Shown here: piece after piece, positions 31,128 through 42,626 of the stretch
Layout of the letters: each line of letters begins with the position of its first letter
Position numbering within the stretch: the first letter of the stretch is position 1
Source: Nitrospinaceae bacterium
Lineage (GTDB): Bacteria > Nitrospinota > Nitrospinia > Nitrospinales > Nitrospinaceae
Reading direction: 5' to 3'
Assembly: GCA_965223665.1 (NCBI GenBank)
Contig: OZ245011.1
Coordinates: 1,824,001 to 1,888,000 of the forward strand
Length of the DNA: 64,000 nt
Translations under genes and position numbers: made by a program
The notes under the pieces: generated by a model
Told to the model about the DNA's origin: nothing
What the model saw: only the letters and a program-made list of their open reading frames with translations
Database searches by the model: none

Positions 31128-31200
31128 ACAGCCTTTCCATCCAACCTGCATTAACTGAACCCCGGGAAAAGATTAAAATGACCTGAACAGAATCCACAAA

Positions 31201-31235
31201 AAAAAGCCTGCGCTCGAAGAAAACGCAGGCTTTTT
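31201..31235. terminator. Bidirectional intrinsic terminator
   Basis: AAAAAGCCTGCG-N11-CGCAGGCTTTTT. Confidence 0.9.
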
Positions 31236-31328
31236 GGTTCAAAGGTTAGGTTGTAACTGGGCCTCGTAAAATTTAAATCTCCGAGCCAAACCCGTTCCCG
31301 GGGCACAGCTCGCAGACAGTTACATATT

Positions 31329-31775
31329 TTAGGAGCCGCCCTGGATTTCGACCTTCACGGTCTTTGGAACAATTTCCTCTCGTTTGGGGAGAACTAAAGT
31401 TAAAATTCCATGTTCCAACTTTGCGGAAATTTTTTCCGGGTCTACTCCATCACCCAGCACAAAGGAGCGTTCAAAATTTTGATTCAGGAATTCGCGCATA
31501 AGATATTTATTTACTTTTTGTTCTGCCTCTTCTCCCCATTGGCCTCGAATGAACAATTTACCATCGCGCGTTTCCACGTTGATGTTTTTATCGGTCATTC
31601 CCGGCACTTGTGCTGTTAAAATAAAGCTATTCTCTGTTTCCACCAAATTCACTTTAACCGATTCATTTTTGGATGCCGCCCATTCCGGTTGCCTGGAAAC
31701 CTCAGTATTAAAAATAGGATCATTTTCAAAAAAACGATCAACTAAATTATTGGGCTTAAAAGTAATAATGTTCAT
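31329..31775 (-). CDS. Hsp20/alpha-crystallin small heat-shock protein (copy 1)
   Basis: FERSFVL and AKLEHGILTLVLPK motifs; about 66% aa identity (my count 98/148) to 35609..36055. Confidence 0.95.
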   Translation of the reverse strand: MNIITFKPNNLVDRFFENDPIFNTEVSRQPEWAASKNESVKVNLVETENSFILTAQVPGMTDKNINVETRDGKLFIRGQWGEEAEQKVNKYLMREFLNQNFERSFVLGDGVDPEKISAKLEHGILTLVLPKREEIVPKTVKVEIQGGS

Positions 31776-32043
31776 AATTGACCCCCTTTCACTATCCTTA
31801 AAAAAATTTTTAAAATTCGGTTGCGTTTTCGAGTCGGTACTCATTCAACTCGTTATGATTTTTAAATAAAATTGGCGGAAATAAATGTCAAGGTGAGAAG
31901 AATTTTTTTTTGAGAGAAGATGGATCCAATAAAAAATTCCGAATAATTCCTTATAAAACAAAAGCTTAAAAACATGAGCTTTTGCAATAAAATTTTTTTT
32001 ATATGACCTTGACTGTATCGAAAAGGATTTTATTAATCTTATA

Positions 32044-32188
32044 ACAAACCCGAGTAGCCGGATAGCTACAACCTAATAATAGGGGTTGAAAGTAAGACAT
32101 GTTGATTTCTTAATTAATGATTAACTTCGGGTTTGGGTCCCACAATTTCCGGCTATAACTTTTCATTTATTTTTTTAAGGAGGTTACC
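32044..32188 (+). ncRNA. Candidate structured 5' leader (copy 1)
   Basis: Interleaved stems conserved, with compensatory changes, in copy 2; lies just downstream of a TTGACT..TATTAA promoter. Confidence 0.55.
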
Positions 32189-32428
32189 ATGAAAAAACTC
32201 TTATTTTTATTGATCACCGTTTCATTTTTAATTGGAATTTCCTCAGTCAACGCATTTGCCAGCGAACCGGCACCCGATCCTATGGACCGCCATGCAGTCT
32301 GGACTAATACCTCCACTGTTGGAAAGGGCGGCACGGCACCCATGCCTATGACCACCAAAGGTGACAAGGGAAAAACTTTTGACTTTATTCGTGAAACAAA
32401 GTCTTACGAATACAATAAAAATTCTTAA
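32189..32428 (+). CDS. Small secreted protein (79 aa), paralog of 38822..39064
   Basis: AAGGAGG RBS; signal peptide ending AFA; terminator follows. Confidence 0.85.
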   Translation: MKKLLFLLITVSFLIGISSVNAFASEPAPDPMDRHAVWTNTSTVGKGGTAPMPMTTKGDKGKTFDFIRETKSYEYNKNS

Positions 32429-32581: not shown

Positions 32582-33745
32582 TCAGGAAGAAGATTCCAAT
32601 ACAAGAGGAATTTCAATATGTTTACCTTCACGCCACAATTTCACTTTCACAGTGTCGCCAATCTGGTAGCGATTAATTACCTTAACCAGGTCATCCATCT
32701 TTCCTATCTTTTCATCATTGATGGCAAGGATGATATCGCCTCCTACAGCAAAACTTAAATTGCCAATGATTAAATTCGTGTGGCCTCCTTTAATACCACT
32801 TTTACGTGCCGGGCTTCCCGGAAAGGTTTCCACAACCAAAACACCGGTTTCCAGACTGATATTGAGAATCTTTCCCAATTCGGGGTTCAGGTTTAAACCC
32901 GAAATGCCTATCCAGGGTTTCGCGTACTTCCCTGTGGTGATCAGCTGTATGGCTACCGCCTTGGCACGATTGACCGGGATGGAAAATCCAATTCCCTGAT
33001 ACCCGCCGGACAAACTGAAAATAGCGGTGTTGATTCCGATCACTTCACCGCTGGAGTTGAGTAACGGTCCCCCTGAGTTTCCGGGGTTGATGGCCGCATC
33101 GGTTTGGATGAGATCGTACAACACGCCGCCGTCATTACTTTGGATTTGTCGATTCAGCGCACTCACGATACCCACCGTCATGGTGTGGGACAGTCCGAAT
33201 GGGTTTCCAATCGCAATAGCTTTTTGTCCTACTTTAATCTTGTCCGAATTCCCCAGAACCGCAACACGGGTTACATATTTCTCCGGAATTTTTATTACCG
33301 CCAAATCAGAGGAGGGATCTCGGCCAATTAAAACCGCATCCACTTTTTTCTGGTTTCCCAGCGTAACAGTGATAATCTTTGCGTTTTCTACCACATGGTT
33401 ATTCGTCAGAATATAACCCTTTTTATCAATAATGAATCCCGTGCCCTGCCCCTGTTTCGGAATAATGTTCCTCCAGTAGTTCATGGTCAAGGTGGTAGCA
33501 GCAATATTCACCACCGCTTCATGCACCTGTTCGAATACATCCGTAGTGATTTTTTCATCGGGCGAAATAACGAGGGGACGGTCCAATTTTTCAGGCCGAT
33601 TGAAATCCAGTTCCTGAGCCGACGGCGAATCCACCACTGCTAAAGAAATTTTTTCCCATTGGCCCCACAGGGTCAGCAACAGGGCAAACAGCATTAGAAT
33701 CCAGAAGTGTGATTTTGAATTTTTAAATGATGAAAATAAGTTCAT
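32582..33745 (-). CDS. HtrA/DegP-family serine protease with one PDZ domain
   Basis: TNNHV, DLAV and GNSGG catalytic-triad motifs; PDZ C-terminus. Confidence 0.95.
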   Translation of the reverse strand: MNLFSSFKNSKSHFWILMLFALLLTLWGQWEKISLAVVDSPSAQELDFNRPEKLDRPLVISPDEKITTDVFEQVHEAVVNIAATTLTMNYWRNIIPKQGQGTGFIIDKKGYILTNNHVVENAKIITVTLGNQKKVDAVLIGRDPSSDLAVIKIPEKYVTRVAVLGNSDKIKVGQKAIAIGNPFGLSHTMTVGIVSALNRQIQSNDGGVLYDLIQTDAAINPGNSGGPLLNSSGEVIGINTAIFSLSGGYQGIGFSIPVNRAKAVAIQLITTGKYAKPWIGISGLNLNPELGKILNISLETGVLVVETFPGSPARKSGIKGGHTNLIIGNLSFAVGGDIILAINDEKIGKMDDLVKVINRYQIGDTVKVKLWREGKHIEIPLVLESSS

Positions 33746-33923
33746 TTTTTTCCTGTTTTTTTCAGCCCCTAACTTGACAGAAAATCTAGTGGGTATTATT
33801 TAATTTATAGGAAGGTAATAAAATGTGTCCGTTTGTATGTCAAGAGAAGGAATCTGTTTTGTGCAGTGGTTAACACTCATGGGCTAACAAGCCATGAAAT
33901 TTCAATAATTTTTAATTGGAGGT

Positions 33924-34436
33924 ATGACCATGAACCTTAAAGAACTGATTCCCTGGTATCGGGATAAAGATGGAAATTTGTTGAAAAACACCGATGATAA
34001 TCCTTTTTTGACTTTACAACGGGAAATGAATCAGATGTTCGACAGTTTCTCCCGATCCATTTTCGACGACTCCTCCTTTTTTAAGGGAAGAGGATCCGGG
34101 ATGGTATCCACTAAAATGGATGTTAAGGAAACTGATAAAAATATCCAGGTGACATTGGAACTACCCGGAATCGAGGAAAAGGATATTGATGTGAATGTTA
34201 CCAAAGATCTGCTGACGATTAAGGGGGAAAAACAAGCAGAAAAGGACGAAAAGAAAGAGGGCTATCATTTGATTGAAAGATCCTTCGGTTCTTTTCATCG
34301 GTCTGTCCCTTTACCACCGGGTGTAGAAACAGATCAGGTGAAAGCGAATTTTAAAAATGGAGTGCTGAAAATAACGCTTCCTAAATCTGAGGAAGCACAA
34401 AAAGAAACAAAAAAAGTCGAGATTAGTTCCGACTAG
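33924..34436 (+). CDS. Hsp20 small heat-shock protein
   Basis: ERSFGSFHRSVPLP and FKNGVLKITLPK motifs; GGAGG RBS. Confidence 0.95.
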   Translation: MTMNLKELIPWYRDKDGNLLKNTDDNPFLTLQREMNQMFDSFSRSIFDDSSFFKGRGSGMVSTKMDVKETDKNIQVTLELPGIEEKDIDVNVTKDLLTIKGEKQAEKDEKKEGYHLIERSFGSFHRSVPLPPGVETDQVKANFKNGVLKITLPKSEEAQKETKKVEISSD

Positions 34437-34542
34437 AAAAAAATGAGGCAATAGCAAAAGTGGGCCTGCCCTCTTATCTCTATTGCCTCAGCTTTATGCG
34501 AAAGATAATTTGGGTCTCAATGTTTTTAAAAGGGGCAATGTG

Positions 34543-35235
34543 ATGAAACCAAATGATTTTTCAAAAACAAATATTTCAGACACACCACCTGAAGCCAACG
34601 ACGCAGAGATGCATCGGATGAATGAATCCTACATGAACGATTTCGAGTCAAGGCGGCAATTTAAAATTAATCAGTGGCTGTGGGTAGCCATCGTGGTACT
34701 CTCTGTGATCATTGCAGTGCAAAGTTACCTGTTGTGGAAACCGCTGCAGCAACAATCTAAAGGGGATTCCTCGTCTTTAGGTTTAAAAATGGATGATTTG
34801 TTTAAACAAAAAGATCCGATAGGTCAATGGGACGCATTTGATGAATTTCAGAAAATGCAAAAGCGAATGGATGACTTTTTTAAAGAGTCTACTTCCCAAT
34901 GGGAAACCCACGAACCCCCAATGAAAAGTTTTTCCTTCGGCGGGCCGTTTTCTCAACAATACGATTTAAAAGAAACGGATGATCAAGTCATCGTTTCTTT
35001 AAATCTGCCAGGGTTAAATGAAACGAATATCGATGTGACCGTTCAAGAGGGTACTTTAAAAATCAGTGGAACCCTGCGGGAAGAAAAGAAGCGAAGCAAA
35101 GACAACTCCACCTTTCAAAGCAAAAGATCTTCTCATTTTGAGCGTTATCTCACCCTTCCCCAACCGGTTAAGGAAAACTCCCTGAAAGTAGACTACGAGG
35201 ACAATACCTTAACTGTTCAATTGGATAAAAAATAA
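34543..35235 (+). CDS. Membrane-anchored Hsp20-domain protein
   Basis: TM helix WLWVAIVVLSVIIAVQSYLLW followed by an alpha-crystallin domain (FERYLTLP). Confidence 0.85.
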   Translation: MKPNDFSKTNISDTPPEANDAEMHRMNESYMNDFESRRQFKINQWLWVAIVVLSVIIAVQSYLLWKPLQQQSKGDSSSLGLKMDDLFKQKDPIGQWDAFDEFQKMQKRMDDFFKESTSQWETHEPPMKSFSFGGPFSQQYDLKETDDQVIVSLNLPGLNETNIDVTVQEGTLKISGTLREEKKRSKDNSTFQSKRSSHFERYLTLPQPVKENSLKVDYEDNTLTVQLDKK

Positions 35236-35480
35236 CCTGCGAAAAGACATCTTGCCGTTTAACAGAAAAGGTTTTTAAGAAGTTGACGGCGAATCTCCAT
35301 TTGTCCTGGAGGCTCCTGTATTTTCCAGTGTCTGCGACAATAACAAACCGGAAAGAATTTAAAAAATAAAGTTGCCTCCTCCAGTTTAAGTTTTTTTAGG
35401 ACAAATACTCGGGGTAAGAAAGGCTCTTCAATTTTAAGACAAAATCAAAGTTAATGGTAAGCTCTGAATTTTCCACAAAA

Positions 35481-35512
35481 AAAAAGCCTGCGCTCGAAGA
35501 AAACGCAGGCTT
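35481..35512 (-). terminator. Intrinsic terminator, duplicate of 31201..31235
   Basis: Identical stem and loop. Confidence 0.9.
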
Positions 35513-35608
35513 ATTGGTTCAAAGGTTAGGTTGTTAAAGGACCTCGTAAAATTTAAATCTCCGAGCCAAACCCGTTCCCGGGGCCTGGCCCGCAGACAGT
35601 TTCATATT

Positions 35609-36055
35609 TTAGGAGGTGCCCTGGATTTCGACCTTCACGGTCTTGGGTTTCACTTCCTCACGCTTGGGCAGAACCAGAGTCAGAACTCCGCTGTCCAGCT
35701 TCGCGGAGATCTTCTCCGGGTCCACTCCATCACCTAGCACAAAGGAGCGTTCAAAACTTTGTGATGCAAATTCACGCATGTGATAGTTTTCCTCTTGCTT
35801 CTCAGTCTTTTCTTCTACATGACCTTTGAGGAACAGTTTACCGTCGCGAGTTTCCACACTGATGTCTTTTTCAGTCAATCCGGGAACCTGCGCCGTTAGT
35901 GTAAAGTTATCTTCGTTTTCTACCACATTCACTTTGACAGAACTCGTTTTCGCAGGAGCCCACTCAGGGTTCCAGCGAAACGCATTATTAAAAAATGGAT
36001 CGTCATCAAAAAAACGATCAATAAAATGATTTGGTTTATAAGTTACTACATTCAT
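35609..36055 (-). CDS. Hsp20 small heat-shock protein (copy 2)
   Basis: Alpha-crystallin motifs; GGAGG RBS. Confidence 0.95.
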   Translation of the reverse strand: MNVVTYKPNHFIDRFFDDDPFFNNAFRWNPEWAPAKTSSVKVNVVENEDNFTLTAQVPGLTEKDISVETRDGKLFLKGHVEEKTEKQEENYHMREFASQSFERSFVLGDGVDPEKISAKLDSGVLTLVLPKREEVKPKTVKVEIQGTS

Positions 36056-36469
36056 TTGGGACCTCCAGTTATGTAATTCATCCTAAAAATAAAACAATTT
36101 TTTGTTATTGATTAATTTTTAAGAGCCGGCACTCATTTAACTTGTTCTGCTTAATAAATAAAATCGCCATTTTCACCTGTCAAGGTGACAAGTCATTTTT
36201 TTTATTTTCTGAAATTTCAAACCATTGAAAAAACCTTAAAATAAGGGCTGTTTCGACGATCCCCCTAAATTTCCAATCACTTACCCTCTCACCAAAATTG
36301 TAAAATTCTGACAAAAAATTAAAACTTTTCTGTAATTTTTTTCAGAGTTTTTCTGATTGTCGAAACTAAACCGTTTTTTTTAATATAAAGAACGTTCCTT
36401 ATATAGGGCAGGATTTTAGGGTTTTTTTAATTGATAGAATTCGTTTTAAAACATTCCATTTGAGAAAGG

Positions 36470-37050: not shown

Positions 37051-38052
37051 TTATTGGGGAGAGTCTATGGAATCTCGAATTTCTTCAATCCAGGGACCGG
37101 AAAGGAGTTGGTCAAAATGTTGAATGTATTTAAGGGACATTTCTTGGAGCAAATCCGAATTGTGCGCCAGGCGTTCGACTTGAACCCACAAATTCCATTC
37201 CTTTCGTAAGCTCCAATTCGGATCGTTCAATCTTGAATCCGGCAAACGGTAATGAAAAGTTGGCCGCGCAGAAGTCAGGTCGTCATTTAGCTGTTTTTCA
37301 ACTTTTTCTCTATTCAAAAACGTAAGTAACGGTAGTAAATCCAATTCTCGATTACGGGTCGAATTATCCGACAAATAATCATCTATAAATTGATTTAAAT
37401 CGGGTTGATACGCACTATTCATTATCTTAAGGCAATACGATTCCGGAAACGAATTAATATAGGGAGATATTTTTCGAGCCACATCCACATCAATGGCCTC
37501 GTGAAGCCAGTCACTTAACAGAAGAAATGCCCGCAAATGATTTAGGATCGCCTCCACCTTCCTGGAAGGAACTTCAGGATTGATATGAACCCCAAAGGCA
37601 AATATAAAAGCTTCATCGGTACCTTTAACATCCAGTTCCTTTAAGCCGTCGACTAAAGCATCCAACTCATTTAAGCGATCCAGCGGGATGGCATCGGTAA
37701 TCACTTCATACGGAACGACGGATTTGCTAATATCCCCAACAATTTCGCACAACTTTTCCACTGCTTCATATTTAAGAAACCGTTCCAATTCACTTTCGTC
37801 CAGTTGGTCTTCGGAAGATTTTTCAGGATGCACCAGTTGCGTATCGAGTTGCACTGAAAAATCACCCAACTTGCTTTTCAGAATTTTATAGTAATGTGCA
37901 TTGACGGTTTCGAGACGGCCACCAAAAATATCCTTAATTTTCTCTGCCACTTCCAACGGGTTTTCTGCAGCAAACTCGATTTCAAAACCAACGGTTCGCG
38001 TTTTGCCCTTATCGTTTTGGATAATGGGAGGCAGTAAAAAGGAATCATTCAT
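37051..38052 (-). CDS. Putative amidoligase (Amidoligase_2-like, COOH-NH2 ligase fold)
   Basis: GFEIEF, PYEVIT, AFGVHINPE, TRNRELDLLP and RPTFHYRLP motifs. Confidence 0.85.
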   Translation of the reverse strand: MNDSFLLPPIIQNDKGKTRTVGFEIEFAAENPLEVAEKIKDIFGGRLETVNAHYYKILKSKLGDFSVQLDTQLVHPEKSSEDQLDESELERFLKYEAVEKLCEIVGDISKSVVPYEVITDAIPLDRLNELDALVDGLKELDVKGTDEAFIFAFGVHINPEVPSRKVEAILNHLRAFLLLSDWLHEAIDVDVARKISPYINSFPESYCLKIMNSAYQPDLNQFIDDYLSDNSTRNRELDLLPLLTFLNREKVEKQLNDDLTSARPTFHYRLPDSRLNDPNWSLRKEWNLWVQVERLAHNSDLLQEMSLKYIQHFDQLLSGPWIEEIRDSIDSPQ

Positions 38053-38158: not shown

Positions 38159-38473
38159 TCACAGTATTTTACTTTTCACCCAATCCTTAATTCCTTCAAA
38201 AGTCGCGTTCAGGTCTTCACCCAAACCATCCAGCTTGGCTTTCAATCCTTCCAGGGCACTGTCTTCCGCATTTATAAGTAGACTTTGCAGTTCCTTAATG
38301 ACGGCAATTTGTTTTCTAAGGTTAACGATATGCTCCTCATATTGTTCTTTAATTTCATCCGAGGCATTTTCCAGGTCTTTTTTTAGAACCTCAATATTAA
38401 ATGTATATTGTTCCAGCTTTTGATCCAGCTGGTCCAGATACTCTTGTTTTTTAAACATGGTTTCCCCTTGCAA
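38159..38473 (-). CDS. Small coiled-coil stress-type protein
   Basis: Amphipathic heptad pattern, 'KQEYLDQLDQKLEQY'; start may be the ATG at 38458. Confidence 0.65.
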   Translation of the reverse strand: MQGETMFKKQEYLDQLDQKLEQYTFNIEVLKKDLENASDEIKEQYEEHIVNLRKQIAVIKELQSLLINAEDSALEGLKAKLDGLGEDLNATFEGIKDWVKSKIL

Positions 38474-38674
38474 AAAAGTGAACTCCTTATCCTTTTATCA
38501 CTAAACAGATTTAAATTGAAAGATTTTTAATTCAGGTATTTAAGAGAGACCCTTTCCAATGAAAAGTAATTCCTATAAAAGCCGAGACTATCAACCCAAA
38601 GGGCATCCTGAATTTTTTTTAATTTTTTTTCTACTGACCTTGACAATTTTCCAGTCCATTTTATAAATAAATTA

Positions 38675-38821
38675 ACAAGCCTGATTGGCCGGAATATTTG
38701 CAACCTGACTTTAAGGGTTGAACTAAAACCATGATGATTTCTTAATTAATGAATTATTTCGGGCTTTAATCTTTTTTGGTTCCGGCTGTAACTTTTCATT
38801 TTTTTTCTTTAGGAGGTTACC
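38675..38821 (+). ncRNA. Candidate structured 5' leader (copy 2)
   Basis: Same stems as 32044..32188; lies downstream of TTGACA..TATAAA. Confidence 0.55.
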
Positions 38822-39064
38822 ATGAAAAAACTCTTATTTTTATTGATTGCAACTACCCTACTCATCGGATTTTCAGGAGTCAGCGCTTTTGCCAAAGACC
38901 CCGCTTCCCCCGAAGTAGACCGTCACGCCGTATGGACCCATGCCACTTCATCTGGCAAATGGAGTCAAGGCCCCATGATCTCAAAAGACCGCAAAAGCAA
39001 TCCTTTTGACTTTATTCGTGAAACAAAATCTTACGAATATAATAAAGGCAGTAAACAATCTTAA
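38822..39064 (+). CDS. Small secreted protein (80 aa), paralog of 32189..32428
   Basis: AGGAGG RBS; signal peptide; shared DRHAVWT and FDFIRETKSYEYNK. Confidence 0.85.
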   Translation: MKKLLFLLIATTLLIGFSGVSAFAKDPASPEVDRHAVWTHATSSGKWSQGPMISKDRKSNPFDFIRETKSYEYNKGSKQS

Positions 39065-39371: not shown

Positions 39372-42300
39372 TCAACTTTCAAGGGAACTCAGGTTTTTTG
39401 CCAGATATTCGTCAATGGTTTTTAAAAAATGGGGAATAGAAAATGGCTTCGTTATATAAGCTTCAAATCCACACGACAAAGCTTTTTTCTTATCCGTTTC
39501 CATTGCATTGGCACTCACAGCAATCACAGGGATATTTTTTGTTTCTTCATAAGATTGAAGATATTTGAATGCTGTAATCCCGTCTATTTCCGGGAGGTTT
39601 ATATCCATAAGAATTAATTCAGGCTGGTGTTTTTTTGCTAATTCAATACCTATATCTGCTTTGCCGGCTGAAACAAAGCGAATTTCATCACGATTAGATA
39701 GTATTTCTTTTACAAGAAGATGATTAGCTGGATTATCTTCAATATAAAGCAGAGTAAACTTTTTATCAGCCGGCAAAATATTTTTTCTCACCTTGGGTTG
39801 CCCCATGGATACTGAATTTTTGTTTACAGGATTTTTTCCCATTGGAAAATTAACCATAAAACAACTTCCCTTGCCAGGCGTACTGTCTACCCCAATGGTT
39901 CCATTCATCATTTCAACTAAAGATTTTGTCAAAGAGAGACCTATCCCCGTTCCTTCAATCCCCGTGGTTTCGAAACCTATCCTATTAAAGGGCTCAAATA
40001 TTTCCTTCTGTTTTTCTTTTGAAATCCCTGGTCCTGTGTCACTAACTTTTATTTGAACCTGATCGCTTTCCATGAGGGAATAGTCAATTGAAATCGTCCC
40101 TCCTTCTTTGTTGTATTTAACTGCGTTGGAAAGTAAATTCAGCAAAACTTGTTTAAATCGAAGCCGGTCCACATTCACGAAAATTTCTTCGTTTGGGTCC
40201 ATCAGGTTAAAAATATCAATATCCCTCTTTTTCGCCATAGGGCGAAGCAGTGTTAAGGATTCCGAAACTATTTCTTTTAGATTTACATTTTCAATAGAGA
40301 AAGTTGTTTTGCCCGATTCTATGGATGCCAAATCAAGAATTTCATTGATGAGCGCCAATAAATGATTTCCCGCATTTATTATTTCTTTACATCTATCCTG
40401 CTGAGCAGGAGATAAGAGCATTTTGGAATCATTTTTTAATAACTGTCCAAATCCTAAAATTGCATTTAAAGGAGTTCGTAATTCATGACTCATGCTGGAT
40501 AAAAATTTAGATTTTGCGTAATTGGCTTTTTCGGCGTCTTCTTTGGTTTTGATTAATTGCTTTTCAATTTCTTTTCGTTCTGTTATATCTCGGACAATAC
40601 CCACAAAATATATTTTTTCCCCAATGACCATTTCATTAATTGCAAGATCCATAGGGAAAGTTTTTCCAGCTTTAGACAACCCTCTGACTTCGCGTCCAAT
40701 TCCAATTATTTTTGACTTTTTATTTGAAAGGTATTGTTTTAAATAGTTATCGTGATCTGAAGCATAGGGCTCCGGCGCTAGATATGAAATATTCTTTCCA
40801 ATAACCTCAGAAGCCTCATACCCGAAAATTCTTTCTGCACTTGAATTGAACGACTGAATGATTCCCTTGTCATTGATTGTGATCAGTCCGTCTGCAATAT
40901 TTTCGATTATCGAATTGAGCCTCACCTGATTTTCTGCTAATTGAACATTTGTGGAATTAAGTTCTTTAGTCCTTTCATTGACCAGTTGTTCAAGGTGATT
41001 TTGATACTCTTCCAATTCCTGCAAGTATTTTTTTTGCTCGGTAATATCCCGAATAATACAAACATAGAGCAAATGTTCCTCAACATGCATGGGCTTTATC
41101 CGCAATTCAACAGGGAACATGTTCTGATCTTTTTTTATTCCCATGCCTTCCAATTCTTTGGAGGGTTGGGACTCAGCCCATTGAATTAATTTTTTAATGA
41201 GAATATTTTCAGAGATTTTTTCCGAAATCGTAAAAAGACGGTTCAAATTCTTCCCAATAATTTCATTCGAACTGTAACCAAACATTTTTTCTGCAGCCGG
41301 ATTAAAGGATTCCACTACACCTTTTGGGTCGAAAATAGCTACTCCTTCTGTTAAATTATCTATGGTTGCAGAAATCAGTGCTTCATCTCTTAATAATTTT
41401 TCTTCCAGGGCTTCCAAATTGTGTTCTGAAATATCCAGACCAATTCTTTCTTCCTTATAATTCACCCGAAGAGGAAAAACTTTATTTATTCCCCATAAAA
41501 ATACATAGGCAGTACCAAAAGACCAAACGAAACAAATACCCACACCTTCCATTTGTACCCAAAGCTGTTCTAAAACACTGTTCCGGGACCCCCAGGAGGA
41601 GGGATCTCCAAATAATGCAACGGCTAAAGTTCCCCAAACCCCGTTAACACAATGAATGGGAATAGCGTTGACCACGTCATCGATTTTTTGTTTCTCTAAA
41701 AATTGGGTGGCAAAAAAACTTAAAAGACCCGCCACCAGCCCAATAATGATTGAGGATTGATCATCTACAATGTTACAGCAAGCAGTTATAGCCACTAAGC
41801 CCGACAAACTTCCGTTGATTAGAGTTTCCGGGCTGGGGCGTTTCAGTATTATCCAGGATATAAGGAGAGAAGATAAACTTCCGGAAATGCCGGCTAAAAG
41901 AGTATTGAGAATAATGTTGGGTACTTCTTGATTAAAATGTAAGGTACTTCCCCCGTTAAAACCAAACCATCCAATCCATAATAACAATCCGCCCAACACG
42001 GCCAGGGGAATATTATTCGGCTGAAAAAATTTCTTTTCACGATTATACCTTCCAGTTCGAGGCCCTAAAATAATTAATGCGGCCAGGGCGACCCATCCCC
42101 CAACACTGTGAACTACAGTCGACCCGGCAAAATCTATAAAACCTCTTTCCGCTAGCCAACCCACCGGCTGCCCGGATTCCAATCCCGCCCACGCCCAATG
42201 CCCAAATAGGGGATAAATAATTCCTGAAACTATCATCCCGATAATTAGATAGCCCAAAAACCGGACGCGTTCGGCGATTGCTCCTGAAATAATAGTGACC

Positions 42301-42626
42301 GCCGTCCCGCAAAACATCAACTCAAACAGAAAAAATGTTTTTTGCCAGGGATCATATATTTCGTTTAGGAAAAATCCAGTGGTGCCTAATAAACCGTTAT
42401 GGGAAACACCAAACAGGAGAGCAAAACCCCATATCCAAAAAATACTGGAAGAAATGGTAAGATCGGCAAAATTCTTTAGAGCAACATTGATTGCGTTTTT
42501 TCTTCTAACCAATCCCGCTTCAAGACAAGTAAAGCCCGCTTGCATAATTATTAGAAAACCAGTGCAAACAATAAGCCAAATTAAATCCTGATTGGAATAG
42601 ATTAAATTATTCAAAACTATGTCCAA
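39372..42626 (-). CDS. Ammonium transporter (Amt)-PAS-PAS-histidine kinase-receiver fusion
   Basis: MQAGF, SGAIAER, DFAGSTVVH, GWFGFN and DD..AIPIH Amt motifs; two PAS; MSHELRTP; YIEDN..MDINLP receiver. Confidence 0.95.
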   Translation of the reverse strand: MDIVLNNLIYSNQDLIWLIVCTGFLIIMQAGFTCLEAGLVRRKNAINVALKNFADLTISSSIFWIWGFALLFGVSHNGLLGTTGFFLNEIYDPWQKTFFLFELMFCGTAVTIISGAIAERVRFLGYLIIGMIVSGIIYPLFGHWAWAGLESGQPVGWLAERGFIDFAGSTVVHSVGGWVALAALIILGPRTGRYNREKKFFQPNNIPLAVLGGLLLWIGWFGFNGGSTLHFNQEVPNIILNTLLAGISGSLSSLLISWIILKRPSPETLINGSLSGLVAITACCNIVDDQSSIIIGLVAGLLSFFATQFLEKQKIDDVVNAIPIHCVNGVWGTLAVALFGDPSSWGSRNSVLEQLWVQMEGVGICFVWSFGTAYVFLWGINKVFPLRVNYKEERIGLDISEHNLEALEEKLLRDEALISATIDNLTEGVAIFDPKGVVESFNPAAEKMFGYSSNEIIGKNLNRLFTISEKISENILIKKLIQWAESQPSKELEGMGIKKDQNMFPVELRIKPMHVEEHLLYVCIIRDITEQKKYLQELEEYQNHLEQLVNERTKELNSTNVQLAENQVRLNSIIENIADGLITINDKGIIQSFNSSAERIFGYEASEVIGKNISYLAPEPYASDHDNYLKQYLSNKKSKIIGIGREVRGLSKAGKTFPMDLAINEMVIGEKIYFVGIVRDITERKEIEKQLIKTKEDAEKANYAKSKFLSSMSHELRTPLNAILGFGQLLKNDSKMLLSPAQQDRCKEIINAGNHLLALINEILDLASIESGKTTFSIENVNLKEIVSESLTLLRPMAKKRDIDIFNLMDPNEEIFVNVDRLRFKQVLLNLLSNAVKYNKEGGTISIDYSLMESDQVQIKVSDTGPGISKEKQKEIFEPFNRIGFETTGIEGTGIGLSLTKSLVEMMNGTIGVDSTPGKGSCFMVNFPMGKNPVNKNSVSMGQPKVRKNILPADKKFTLLYIEDNPANHLLVKEILSNRDEIRFVSAGKADIGIELAKKHQPELILMDINLPEIDGITAFKYLQSYEETKNIPVIAVSANAMETDKKKALSCGFEAYITKPFSIPHFLKTIDEYLAKNLSSLES

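What the first reader, a model, noticed from the sequence alone, without database searches (positions are those of the whole stretch)
32044..32188. Duplicated pseudoknot-like 5' leader with compensatory changes: candidate new cis-regulatory RNA
Seen: two paralogous small secreted genes each carry a ~145-nt leader between a sigma70-like promoter and the RBS. Stem A is AAACCCGA(32046)/TCGGGTTT(32127) in copy 1 and AAGCCTGA(38677)/TCGGGCTT(38759) in copy 2, i.e. one A-U to G-C covariation and one C-G to U-G change. Stem B is TAGCCGGA(32055)/TCCGGCTA(32148) versus TGGCCGGAA(38686)/TTCCGGCTG(38780), with changes only to G-U. The order is A,B,A',B', so the stems form a pseudoknot or are mutually exclusive. 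Both copies also keep a CAACC/GGTTG hairpin with a divergent loop, an invariant TGATTTCTTAATTAATGA and a 4-codon uORF (MLIS*/MMIS*), while the linkers diverge. I do not recognise it as a known riboswitch. Inference: riboswitch, thermometer or protein-binding leader.
Basis: partly seen in the sequence, partly recalled or inferred. Interest (0 to 1): 0.8.

Follow-up and report, generated by a model that had tools for sequence, protein, structure and literature searches.

The report
Conserved structured leader on heat-shock-island genes
Two copies of a small secreted-protein gene in a Nitrospinaceae heat-shock gene cluster carry a conserved ~145-base untranslated leader that probably folds and tunes translation, but with only four examples known its shape and trigger remain unproven.

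Summary
Both leaders, all four stem arms, the hairpin, the invariant box and the mini-uORF sit at the stated coordinates. The leader is more conserved (72-79%) than third codon positions of its own gene (48-57%). The conserved complementarities exceed every one of 300 column shuffles. No Rfam family matches.

The claimed covariation is thin. Only four leaders exist, in two genomes of one genus. One of 37 pairs changes on both sides, no better than shuffles (171/500).

Three things are new:
- Both genes lie in a heat-shock island. Their CTTGAC-N14-TTTTAT promoter also precedes dnaK, two hsp20 genes and htrA.
- A third conserved helix pairs the invariant box with the Shine-Dalgarno sequence and start codon. 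It crosses both stems A and B.
- Homologous genes in other Nitrospinota genera carry different long leaders with supported covariation. One group has an equivalent SD-masking helix.

Best reading: a lineage-specific translational control leader, possibly a thermosensor (confidence 0.4). No TSS or expression data were available.

The parts
32008..32033 (+). Promoter of copy 1: CTTGACT-N13-TTTTAT. Heat-shock-type motif; the TSS is inferred 0-5 nt before stem A.
   Evidence: the same motif precedes dnaK, two hsp20 genes, htrA and copy 2; not called by the sigma-70 scan. TSS unmapped.
32046..32053 (+). Stem A, 5' arm (AAACCCGA)
32055..32062 (+). Stem B, 5' arm (TAGCCGGA)
32069..32088 (+). Hairpin P2: CAACCT / GGGTTG. 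The stem is invariant in 4 of 4 leaders; the loop diverges.
32098..32120 (+). Invariant box CATG-N-TGATTTCTTAATTAATGA, the anti-SD/anti-start strand. It contains the 4-codon uORF at 32099-32113.
   Evidence: RNAalifold pairs it with the SD and start codon; 15 pairs, 14 of them invariant.
32127..32134 (+). Stem A, 3' arm (TCGGGTTT). It can alternatively pair with TCCGG of B'.
32148..32155 (+). Stem B, 3' arm (TCCGGCTA)
32158..32191 (+). G-poor tract ACTTTTCATTT..., SD AAGGAGG (32177-32183) and ATG (32189). TTTTCA is complementary to TGAAAA at the start codon.
   Evidence: helix 125-160. TTTTCAT lies upstream of 2 of 55 other GGAG..ATGAAAA genes.
32189..32428 (+). Copy 1 gene: 79-aa secreted protein P0001
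32448..32483 (+). Intrinsic terminator of copy 1
38639..38664 (+). Promoter of copy 2 (CTTGACA-N13-TTTTAT)
38675..38821 (+). Leader of copy 2: A 38677-38684, B 38686-38694, P2 38701-38720, box 38730-38752, A' 38759-38766, B' 38780-38788, SD 38811-38816
38822..39064 (+). Copy 2 gene: 80-aa secreted protein P0002
31329..31844 (-). HSP20 gene divergent from copy 1, with the same promoter motif on the minus strand (near 31892-31867)
32582..33745 (-). HtrA/DegP-like protease (Trypsin_2 + PDZ), with the same promoter motif
33924..36055 (.). Three further HSP20 genes: 33924-34436 (+), 34483-35235 (+), 35609-36055 (-)
   Evidence: the promoter motif precedes the last one.

Best explanation
The element is a selectively maintained, structured 5' leader of two monocistronic heat-shock-regulon mRNAs. 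Each mRNA encodes a small, probably disordered, periplasmic protein that accompanies HtrA and small heat-shock proteins in Nitrospinota.

I think it acts in cis on translation initiation. The invariant box (CAUG-N-UGAUUUCUUAA) pairs with the SD and start codon (UUAGGAGGUUA-N-CAUG) in a long, G-U-rich, imperfect helix capped by a small A':B' hairpin. That would be the OFF state. The G+C-rich 5' strand A-B pairs with A' and B' in an interleaved, pseudoknot-type arrangement. That takes the cap apart and competes topologically with the masking helix, giving the ON state. Because the masking helix is A-U/G-U rich and A and B are G-C rich, warming should shift the balance towards ON. This would add a post-transcriptional layer to a heat-shock promoter.

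Shown: conservation, non-random complementarity, the regulon context, and the existence of three mutually crossing conserved helices.

Inferred: that any of them forms in the cell, that they alternate, and that temperature is the signal.
For: (1) Purifying selection. Leader identity is 72-79% between the three diverged lineages, against 48-57% at third codon positions. Blocks are invariant and linkers are scrambled.

(2) Conserved helices B, A, box:SD and P2 score 20, 18, 15 and 14. The mean maximum over 300 column shuffles is 11.1, and 0 of 300 reach the top three values.

(3) 5 of 64 cells in A and B, and 5 columns of the box:SD helix, are G-U or U-G. They pair only on the sense RNA.

(4) RNAalifold's consensus for the four leaders is the SD/AUG-masking helix plus A':B'.

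(5) Heat-shock context:
- Four HSP20 genes and an HtrA gene lie between and beside the copies.
- The promoter motif also precedes dnaK (1041 bits against the DnaK model), two hsp20 genes and htrA.
- A sigma-32-subfamily sigma factor is encoded (249.6 bits, cut-off 241).

(6) In the same taxonomic family, leaders of homologous genes in genera g2 and g4 have a 23-pair long-range helix. It joins a U/C-rich box (UUUCUUUUAA-like) to the SD and AUG. In that alignment 15 of 55 pairs change on both sides (0 of 500 shuffles reach this; slid controls give 2-9).

(7) In the nested-only ensemble the masking helix of c2 falls from 0.84 at 20 C to 0.17 at 45 C. That of G001_a falls from 0.25 at 10 C to 0.013 at 37 C.
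Against: - Covariation in the four leaders is not significant: 1 compensatory pair, matched by 171 of 500 shuffles.
- The masking helix never varies, so it has no covariation support. Its invariance could simply reflect the SD.
- Predicted SD accessibility is no lower than in shuffled leaders. Unpaired probability native/shuffled: c1 0.26/0.31, c2 0.02/0.18, G001_a 0.24/0.19, G001_b 0.25/0.27. Across the 31 leaders tested there is no family-wide masking.
- In c1 and G001_b the masking helix holds at most 0.003 of the ensemble at every temperature.
- MFE z-scores are weak, -1.2 and -1.6.
- There is no TSS, expression or probing data.
- The pseudoknot could not be scored energetically.
Confidence: 0.4

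Rival explanations
1. The leader is structured but constitutive. A 5'-terminal long-range helix (A:A' and/or B:B') closes a roughly 100-nt domain that protects the mRNA 5' end. The G-poor A/U-rich tract plus a strong SD acts as a translation enhancer. Nothing is sensed.
For: Stem A starts about 0-5 nt from the inferred TSS. Sister leaders of other genera also have a long closing helix at a similar position with compensatory changes: 8 of 28 pairs, 0 of 500 shuffles reach this. The SD is not predicted to be masked in 3 of the 4 leaders. A and B folds dominate the ensembles of c1, G001_a and G001_b.
Against: It does not explain why the box complementary to the SD and AUG is the most invariant part of the leader. 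It also does not explain why A' and B' can pair with each other.
Confidence: 0.25
2. Protein- or sRNA-bound leader. A trans factor binds the conserved single-stranded blocks and controls translation. Candidates are CsrA at GGA motifs (GCCGGAU in B and the SD), a small heat-shock protein as reported for IbpA in E. coli, or an sRNA.
For: CsrA is encoded in the genome (86 bits). GGA lies in B and in the SD of all four leaders. Four sHSP genes are adjacent. IbpA is reported to control translation of heat-shock mRNAs (PMC10410725; only the search listing and the start of the abstract were seen).
Against: A hairpin loop that presents the GGA of B is predicted only in c1. There is no evidence for any binding. 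The complementarity of the blocks to one another is not needed for this model.
Confidence: 0.12
3. Ligand-binding riboswitch whose aptamer is the A/B pseudoknot with P2, and whose expression platform is the box:SD helix.
For: Interleaved conserved helices next to an SD-masking strand. Invariant single-stranded blocks. No known family matches.
Against: The motif occurs only upstream of one gene family in one genus. The gene is a stress-island secreted peptide with no metabolic or transport link. Leaders of orthologous genes in other genera have different sequence and architecture, which is unlike a conserved aptamer.
Confidence: 0.1
4. DNA-level element. A/A' and B/B' are inverted repeats bound by a transcription factor downstream of the promoter.
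For: Both pairs are inverted repeats containing CCGG/CCCG cores. Heat-shock operators such as CIRCE lie in leaders (recalled, not tested).
Against: The arms are 73-93 bp apart and interleaved. 5 of 64 cells are G-U pairs, which would be A-C mismatches between half-sites. The motifs are not found at the other promoters of the regulon.
Confidence: 0.05
5. No function. The similarity is left over from a recent duplication or gene conversion, and the complementarities are incidental.
For: Only two genomes carry it. c2 and G001_a are 90% identical overall.
Against: Between diverged lineages the leader is 15-26 points more conserved than third codon positions. The conservation is block-wise. The complementarities exceed 300 of 300 shuffles.
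Confidence: 0.05

Closest known systems
RNA thermometers of heat-shock mRNAs (ROSE elements, fourU, the ibpA leader); properties recalled, families tested through Rfam
   Same: Sits in the 5' UTR of a gene with a heat-shock-type promoter next to sHSP genes. The SD can pair with a U-rich strand through weak A-U/G-U pairs with mismatches.
   Different: No Rfam hit in any of the four leaders, even at E<=10. The anti-SD strand lies about 75 nt upstream, not in a local hairpin. Two G-C-rich interleaved helices are added. Predicted masking is inconsistent among the four.
Switch-type thermosensors with alternative long-range pairings (cspA mRNA, lambda cIII, rpoH mRNA); recalled
   Same: Two or more mutually exclusive folds, of which one frees the SD and start codon.
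   Different: No sequence relation. Here the alternative fold would be pseudoknotted. Nothing has been shown experimentally.
H-type pseudoknot riboswitch aptamers near the SD (preQ1-II, SAM-II, fluoride); recalled, with Rfam tested
   Same: The stem order is S1-S2-S1'-S2' close to the translation start.
   Different: The loop between B and A' is about 65 nt with its own hairpin. There is no ligand-related gene context and no Rfam match.
Leaders of the homologous genes in other Nitrospinota genera (alignments A8, A9, A10 made here)
   Same: Same gene family. Same promoter motif in 16 of 30 distant entries. Similar length (about 110-180 nt). Long-range helices with compensatory changes. A U/C-rich box masks the SD in A10.
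   Different: Not alignable in sequence. Model R1 scores at most 15.2 bits (E 0.36) on the 27 loci searched, against 127-135 bits for the four. Their helices are nested, not interleaved.

Membership tests
Any Rfam 15 family (incl. ROSE, fourU, riboswitches) | Covariance-model score at or above the family's gathering threshold | tested here: not met
   0 matches in the window at gathering. At E<=10 there are 13 weak matches in the four loci, none overlapping a leader.
RNA thermometer (functional class) | SD and/or start codon held in an imperfect helix | tested here: inconclusive
   A conserved 15-pair helix is possible. It is predicted to dominate only in c2, and SD unpaired probability is no lower than in shuffles.
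RNA thermometer (functional class) | Controls a heat-shock or virulence gene | tested here: met
   HSP20/HtrA island and a promoter motif shared with dnaK. Induction by heat itself is not shown.
RNA thermometer (functional class) | Helix melts in the physiological range and frees the ribosome binding site | not testable with these tools
   Needs probing, toeprinting or reporters. One search is a nested-only model.
H-type pseudoknot | Stem order S1, S2, S1', S2' with both stems formable | tested here: met
   A 9-16 with 91-98 and B 18-25 with 113-120 on alignment A4, 100% of cells paired.
H-type pseudoknot | Both stems supported by covariation or probing | tested here: inconclusive
   One pair changes on both sides in A, none in B. 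171 of 500 shuffles reach the observed values.
Sigma-32 (RpoH)-type promoter | CTTGAA-like -35 and CCCCATNT-like -10 about 13-17 bp apart (consensus recalled) | tested here: inconclusive
   CTTGAC/CTTGCC and the spacing fit, but the -10 is TTTTAT, not CCCCAT. It could equally be a sigma-70 promoter.
Sigma-32 (RpoH)-type promoter | Precedes canonical heat-shock genes, and an RpoH is encoded | tested here: met
   Precedes dnaK, two hsp20 genes and htrA. The sigma factor scores 249.6 bits against NF005143 (cut-off 241) but falls below TIGR02392 (323).
Translated upstream ORF (leader peptide) | SD 5-10 nt upstream and a conserved reading frame | tested here: not met
   No GGAG-like motif within 5-10 nt of the uORF ATG in any copy. 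The ATG is part of the CATG that pairs with the main CATG.

The most novel reading that the evidence does not exclude
The three mutually crossing conserved helices (A:A', B:B', box:SD/AUG) form a new kind of RNA thermosensor. In it a G-C-rich pseudoknot, rather than simple melting, captures the cap of a weak SD-masking helix as temperature rises. It would switch on a previously unknown HtrA/sHSP-associated periplasmic stress peptide family found only in Nitrospinota in these searches, and related leaders would do the same across the phylum with different sequences.
Probability: 0.15. Interest if true: 0.75.

Novelty: new variant of a known kind. Interest (0 to 1): 0.5.

Why it matters
Nitrospinota are the main marine nitrite oxidisers. 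My two searches found nothing in print on their stress regulation. 'Nitrospina' with 'RNA thermometer' gave 0 papers. Among the 10 papers listed for 'Nitrospina', 'heat shock' and 'sigma-32', none contained the word Nitrospina.

If the leader is a sensor, it gives three things:
- a first cis-regulatory RNA for the phylum;
- a candidate heat-shock promoter motif;
- a handle on an unannotated periplasmic protein family that travels with HtrA and sHSP genes.

If it is only a stabilising leader, it is an ordinary lineage-specific 5' UTR. Either way the specific motif is confined to two genomes, so its general reach is small.

Tried and rejected
- **Expression and TSS.** No RNA holder listed: 4 runs of one study, none on record as RNA.
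- **More copies of the motif.**
  - BLAST in 61 related genomes found only the same-genus genome G001.
  - Model R1 over 102 genomes of the order found the four known leaders, plus 5 hits of 24-31 bits that look like chance. Only the best was examined further, and it is not upstream of a homologue.
  - R1 with filters off on 27 homologue loci gave a best score of 15.2 bits. Two insignificant hits overlap the leader position: L039 at 12.5 bits and L041 at 11.3 bits.
  - The metagenome scan gave only 2 loci, both of other leader types.
- **Protein relatives.** The word-index search found only 4 proteins. The profile search was needed to find the wider family.
- **Family-wide SD masking.** Not seen in the 31 leaders tested with 25 shuffles each.
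- **Attenuator.** No terminator-like site on the + strand inside either leader.
- **uORF as a gene.** No SD upstream.
- **Antisense small ORFs.** A 33-aa ORF at 31999-32100 and a 23-aa ORF at 38661-38732 start at the same CATG. They lose the common frame after a 1-nt indel, so they are not conserved coding.
- **Repeat or mobile element.** The composite motifs are unique to the two loci, with one chance 14-mer elsewhere.
- **Protein function.**
  - No Pfam or NCBIfam family.
  - AlphaFold2 mean pLDDT is 65. Apart from the signal-peptide helix there is only a low-confidence C-terminal helix.
  - The Atlas gave no usable hit. No fold search was run.
- **Technical.**
  - The c1 anti-SD constraint was out of register, so use.
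  - timed out and was rerun smaller.
  - One search failed because the alignment was too diverse and was rerun with A7.

Full report
**1. What is there**

- Each has a CTTGAC(T/A) -35-like element and a leader of about 145 nt.
- Each has a strong SD and a gene for a 79- or 80-aa protein with a signal peptide.
- Copy 1 ends in a clean terminator.
- All arm coordinates of stems A and B, the CAACCT/GGGTTG hairpin, the invariant TGATTTCTTAATTAATGA and the 4-codon uORF check out.
- The own genome holds exactly these two copies.
- The only other genome with this leader is the same-genus genome G001, again with two copies (L004, L012).
- By the titles of related records, the organism is a Nitrospinaceae.

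**2. Is it more than chance?**

Three results say yes.
- Between the three diverged lineages (c1; G001_b; c2 with G001_a) the leader is 72-79% identical. Third codon positions of the downstream gene are 48-57% identical. Conservation is block-wise, with scrambled linkers.
- On the four-leader alignment, helices formable in all four sequences score 20 (B:B'), 18 (A:A'), 15 (invariant box with SD) and 14 (hairpin P2). The mean maximum in 300 column shuffles is 11.1, and no shuffle reaches the top three values. This null does not preserve the clustering of G+C.
- Several pairs are G-U, so they pair only on the mRNA strand.

The covariation itself is weak.
- 32 of 37 pairs never vary.
- One pair changes on both sides and three change to wobble pairs.
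- 171 of 500 shuffles do as well.
- MFE z-scores are unremarkable, -1.2 and -1.6.

**3. A third helix**

RNAalifold on the four leaders does not return A or B.
- It pairs CAUG-N-UGAUUUCUUAA with UUAGGAGGUUA-N-CAUG: 15 pairs, five of them G-U columns.
- It extends that helix through AAUGAA with UUCAUU.
- It caps the helix with an A':B' mini-hairpin (UCGGG with UCCGG).

So the most invariant block of the leader is the complement of the ribosome binding site and start codon. The 'uORF' ATG is part of that pairing and has no SD of its own.

A:A' (columns 9-98), B:B' (18-120) and box:SD (62-156) all cross one another. They either alternate or form a complex pseudoknotted fold.

Nearest-neighbour ensembles (nested only) do not settle it.
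- The masking helix dominates in c2: 0.84 at 20 C, 0.17 at 45 C.
- It is minor in G001_a: 0.25 at 10 C, 0.013 at 37 C.
- It is negligible in c1 and G001_b, where A or B folds dominate.
- SD accessibility is no lower than in shuffled leaders.

**4. Context**

The copies flank a heat-shock island.
- HSP20 genes lie at 31329-31844 (-), 33924-34436 (+), 34483-35235 (+) and 35609-36055 (-).
- An HtrA-like protease lies at 32582-33745 (-).

The motif CTTG[AC]C-N13-15-TTTTA[TA] occurs 30 times in the genome. My rough composition estimate expects about 14 by chance, so not all hits are promoters.
- 12 hits have an SD and an ORF of at least 50 aa within 300 nt.
- Those 12 include both copies, two hsp20 genes, htrA and dnaK.
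- DnaK was confirmed at 1041 bits.
- A sigma-32-subfamily sigma factor is encoded: 249.6 bits against NF005143 (cut-off 241), though below the proteobacterial RpoH cut-off.
- The tool's sigma-70 scan does not call the promoter.

I read it as a heat-shock-type promoter. Whether RpoH or the housekeeping sigma uses it is open.

**5. The gene family and its other leaders**

The word-index search found only the four proteins. A profile search then found 33 representatives of about 100 aa. They share a signal peptide, LDRHAVWT, a variable spacer and FDFIRETKSYDYSKD.
- 27 of the 120 Nitrospinota genomes searched carry a homologue.
- Of 23 loci examined, 6 have an HtrA-like gene next to it and 5 have an HSP20 gene. 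Others have PspA, BON, YfdX or an M48 peptidase.
- 16 of 30 distant entries keep the CTTG[ACT][CT]...TTTTA promoter motif. Many also have an AT-rich palindrome (ATTAAAAATTTTTAAT-like) just upstream.

Their leaders are 80-180 nt long but cannot be aligned with ours. Model R1 scores at most 15.2 bits on them. They are nonetheless structured.
- Alignment A8 (4 sequences): a long closing helix, with 8 of 28 pairs changed on both sides. 0 of 500 shuffles reach this; slid controls give 0-3.
- Alignment A10 (5 sequences, genera g2 and g4 of the same family): 15 of 55 pairs changed on both sides. 0 of 500 shuffles reach this; slid controls give 2-9.
- A10 includes a 23-pair long-range helix between a UUUCUUUUAA-like box and the SD and AUG.

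Those structures were derived from the same alignments, so the controls are somewhat generous. They still show that structured leaders, and at least once an SD-masking long-range helix, are a property of this gene family. That raises the prior for the four leaders here.

**6. Mechanism**

My best reading (confidence 0.4) is a cis-acting translational control leader on a heat-shock-regulon mRNA.
- The weak A-U/G-U masking helix gives the OFF state.
- The G-C-rich A:A'/B:B' pairing competes with it and gives the ON state.
- Warming therefore favours translation.

Rivals:
- A constitutive stabilising or enhancing leader (0.25).
- A protein- or sRNA-bound leader (0.12). CsrA is encoded and sHSP genes are adjacent.
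- A ligand riboswitch (0.10). This is disfavoured by the non-metabolic gene and the non-conserved 'aptamer' across genera.
- DNA operators (0.05).
- No function (0.05).

**7. Comparison and novelty**

It is not a member of any Rfam family. It resembles ROSE, fourU and ibpA-type thermometers in context and in weak SD pairing. It resembles switch-type thermosensors in having alternative folds. It differs from both in the distal anti-SD strand and the interleaved G-C helices. These comparisons rest on recalled properties.

I found nothing in print linking Nitrospina with RNA thermometers. One search returned 0 papers. The 10 papers listed did not contain the word Nitrospina.

I rate it a new variant of a known kind. 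It is real and selected, but it is known from only two genomes and its fold and signal are unproven.

**8. Limits**
- No TSS or expression data.
- Four sequences only.
- Pseudoknot energies were not computed.
- The heat-shock regulon is inferred from a shared motif and gene neighbourhood, not from induction data.

Noticed in passing
window 31867-31892 (-), 33819-33844 (-), 36159-36184 (-), 32008-32033 (+), 38639-38664 (+); genome C1:610367 (-): A candidate heat-shock promoter motif, CTTG[AC]C-N13-15-TTTTAT, precedes two hsp20 genes, htrA, both small-protein genes and dnaK. There are 30 hits genome-wide, against roughly 14 expected from base composition (my own rough estimate).
   Followed up: partly
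L031, L033, L034, L036, L037, L040, L043, L044, L058, L059: about 5-25 nt upstream of the CTTGAC element: An AT-rich palindrome (ATTAAAAATTTTTAAT and close variants) sits just upstream of the -35 in many distant homologue loci. It could be an UP element or a regulator site. It is only degenerate in the window's two copies.
   Followed up: no
window 32189-32428, 38822-39064; proteins P0001-P0036: An unannotated small secreted protein family, seen here only in Nitrospinota (LDRHAVWT ... FDFIRETKSYDYSKD). It is predicted to be largely disordered and is often adjacent to HtrA-like and HSP20 genes. No Pfam or NCBIfam model matches.
   Followed up: partly
window 31198-31481 and 35478-35761: A 284-nt direct repeat at 87% identity. 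It reflects two paralogous hsp20 genes (31329-31844 and 35609-36055, both minus strand) that also share their promoter region.
   Followed up: partly
window 39372-42626 (-): A 1084-aa fusion of an ammonium transporter with PAS domains, a histidine kinase and a receiver domain, directly downstream of copy 2.
   Followed up: no
window 37051-38052 (-) and 38159-38473 (-): An Amidoligase_2 gene and a small apolipoprotein-like helical protein lie upstream of copy 2. Upstream of its orthologue in G001 (L004), the amidoligase is present too.
   Followed up: no
L032 and L037 leaders (alignment A8, columns about 48-95): The roughly 55-nt core inside the closing helix is nearly identical between two genera, while the helix itself covaries. 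It contains tiny ORFs (ATG CTG TAG, and a 6-codon ORF with conservative changes). It could be a separate conserved RNA core.
   Followed up: no
L035, L042, L046 (genus g9): about 60-260 nt upstream of the homologue: In these genomes a short upstream ORF (MFHEVKILD...) precedes the gene. The leader is short and has a local AUUUCUU...AAAGGAG hairpin instead of the long leader.
   Followed up: no
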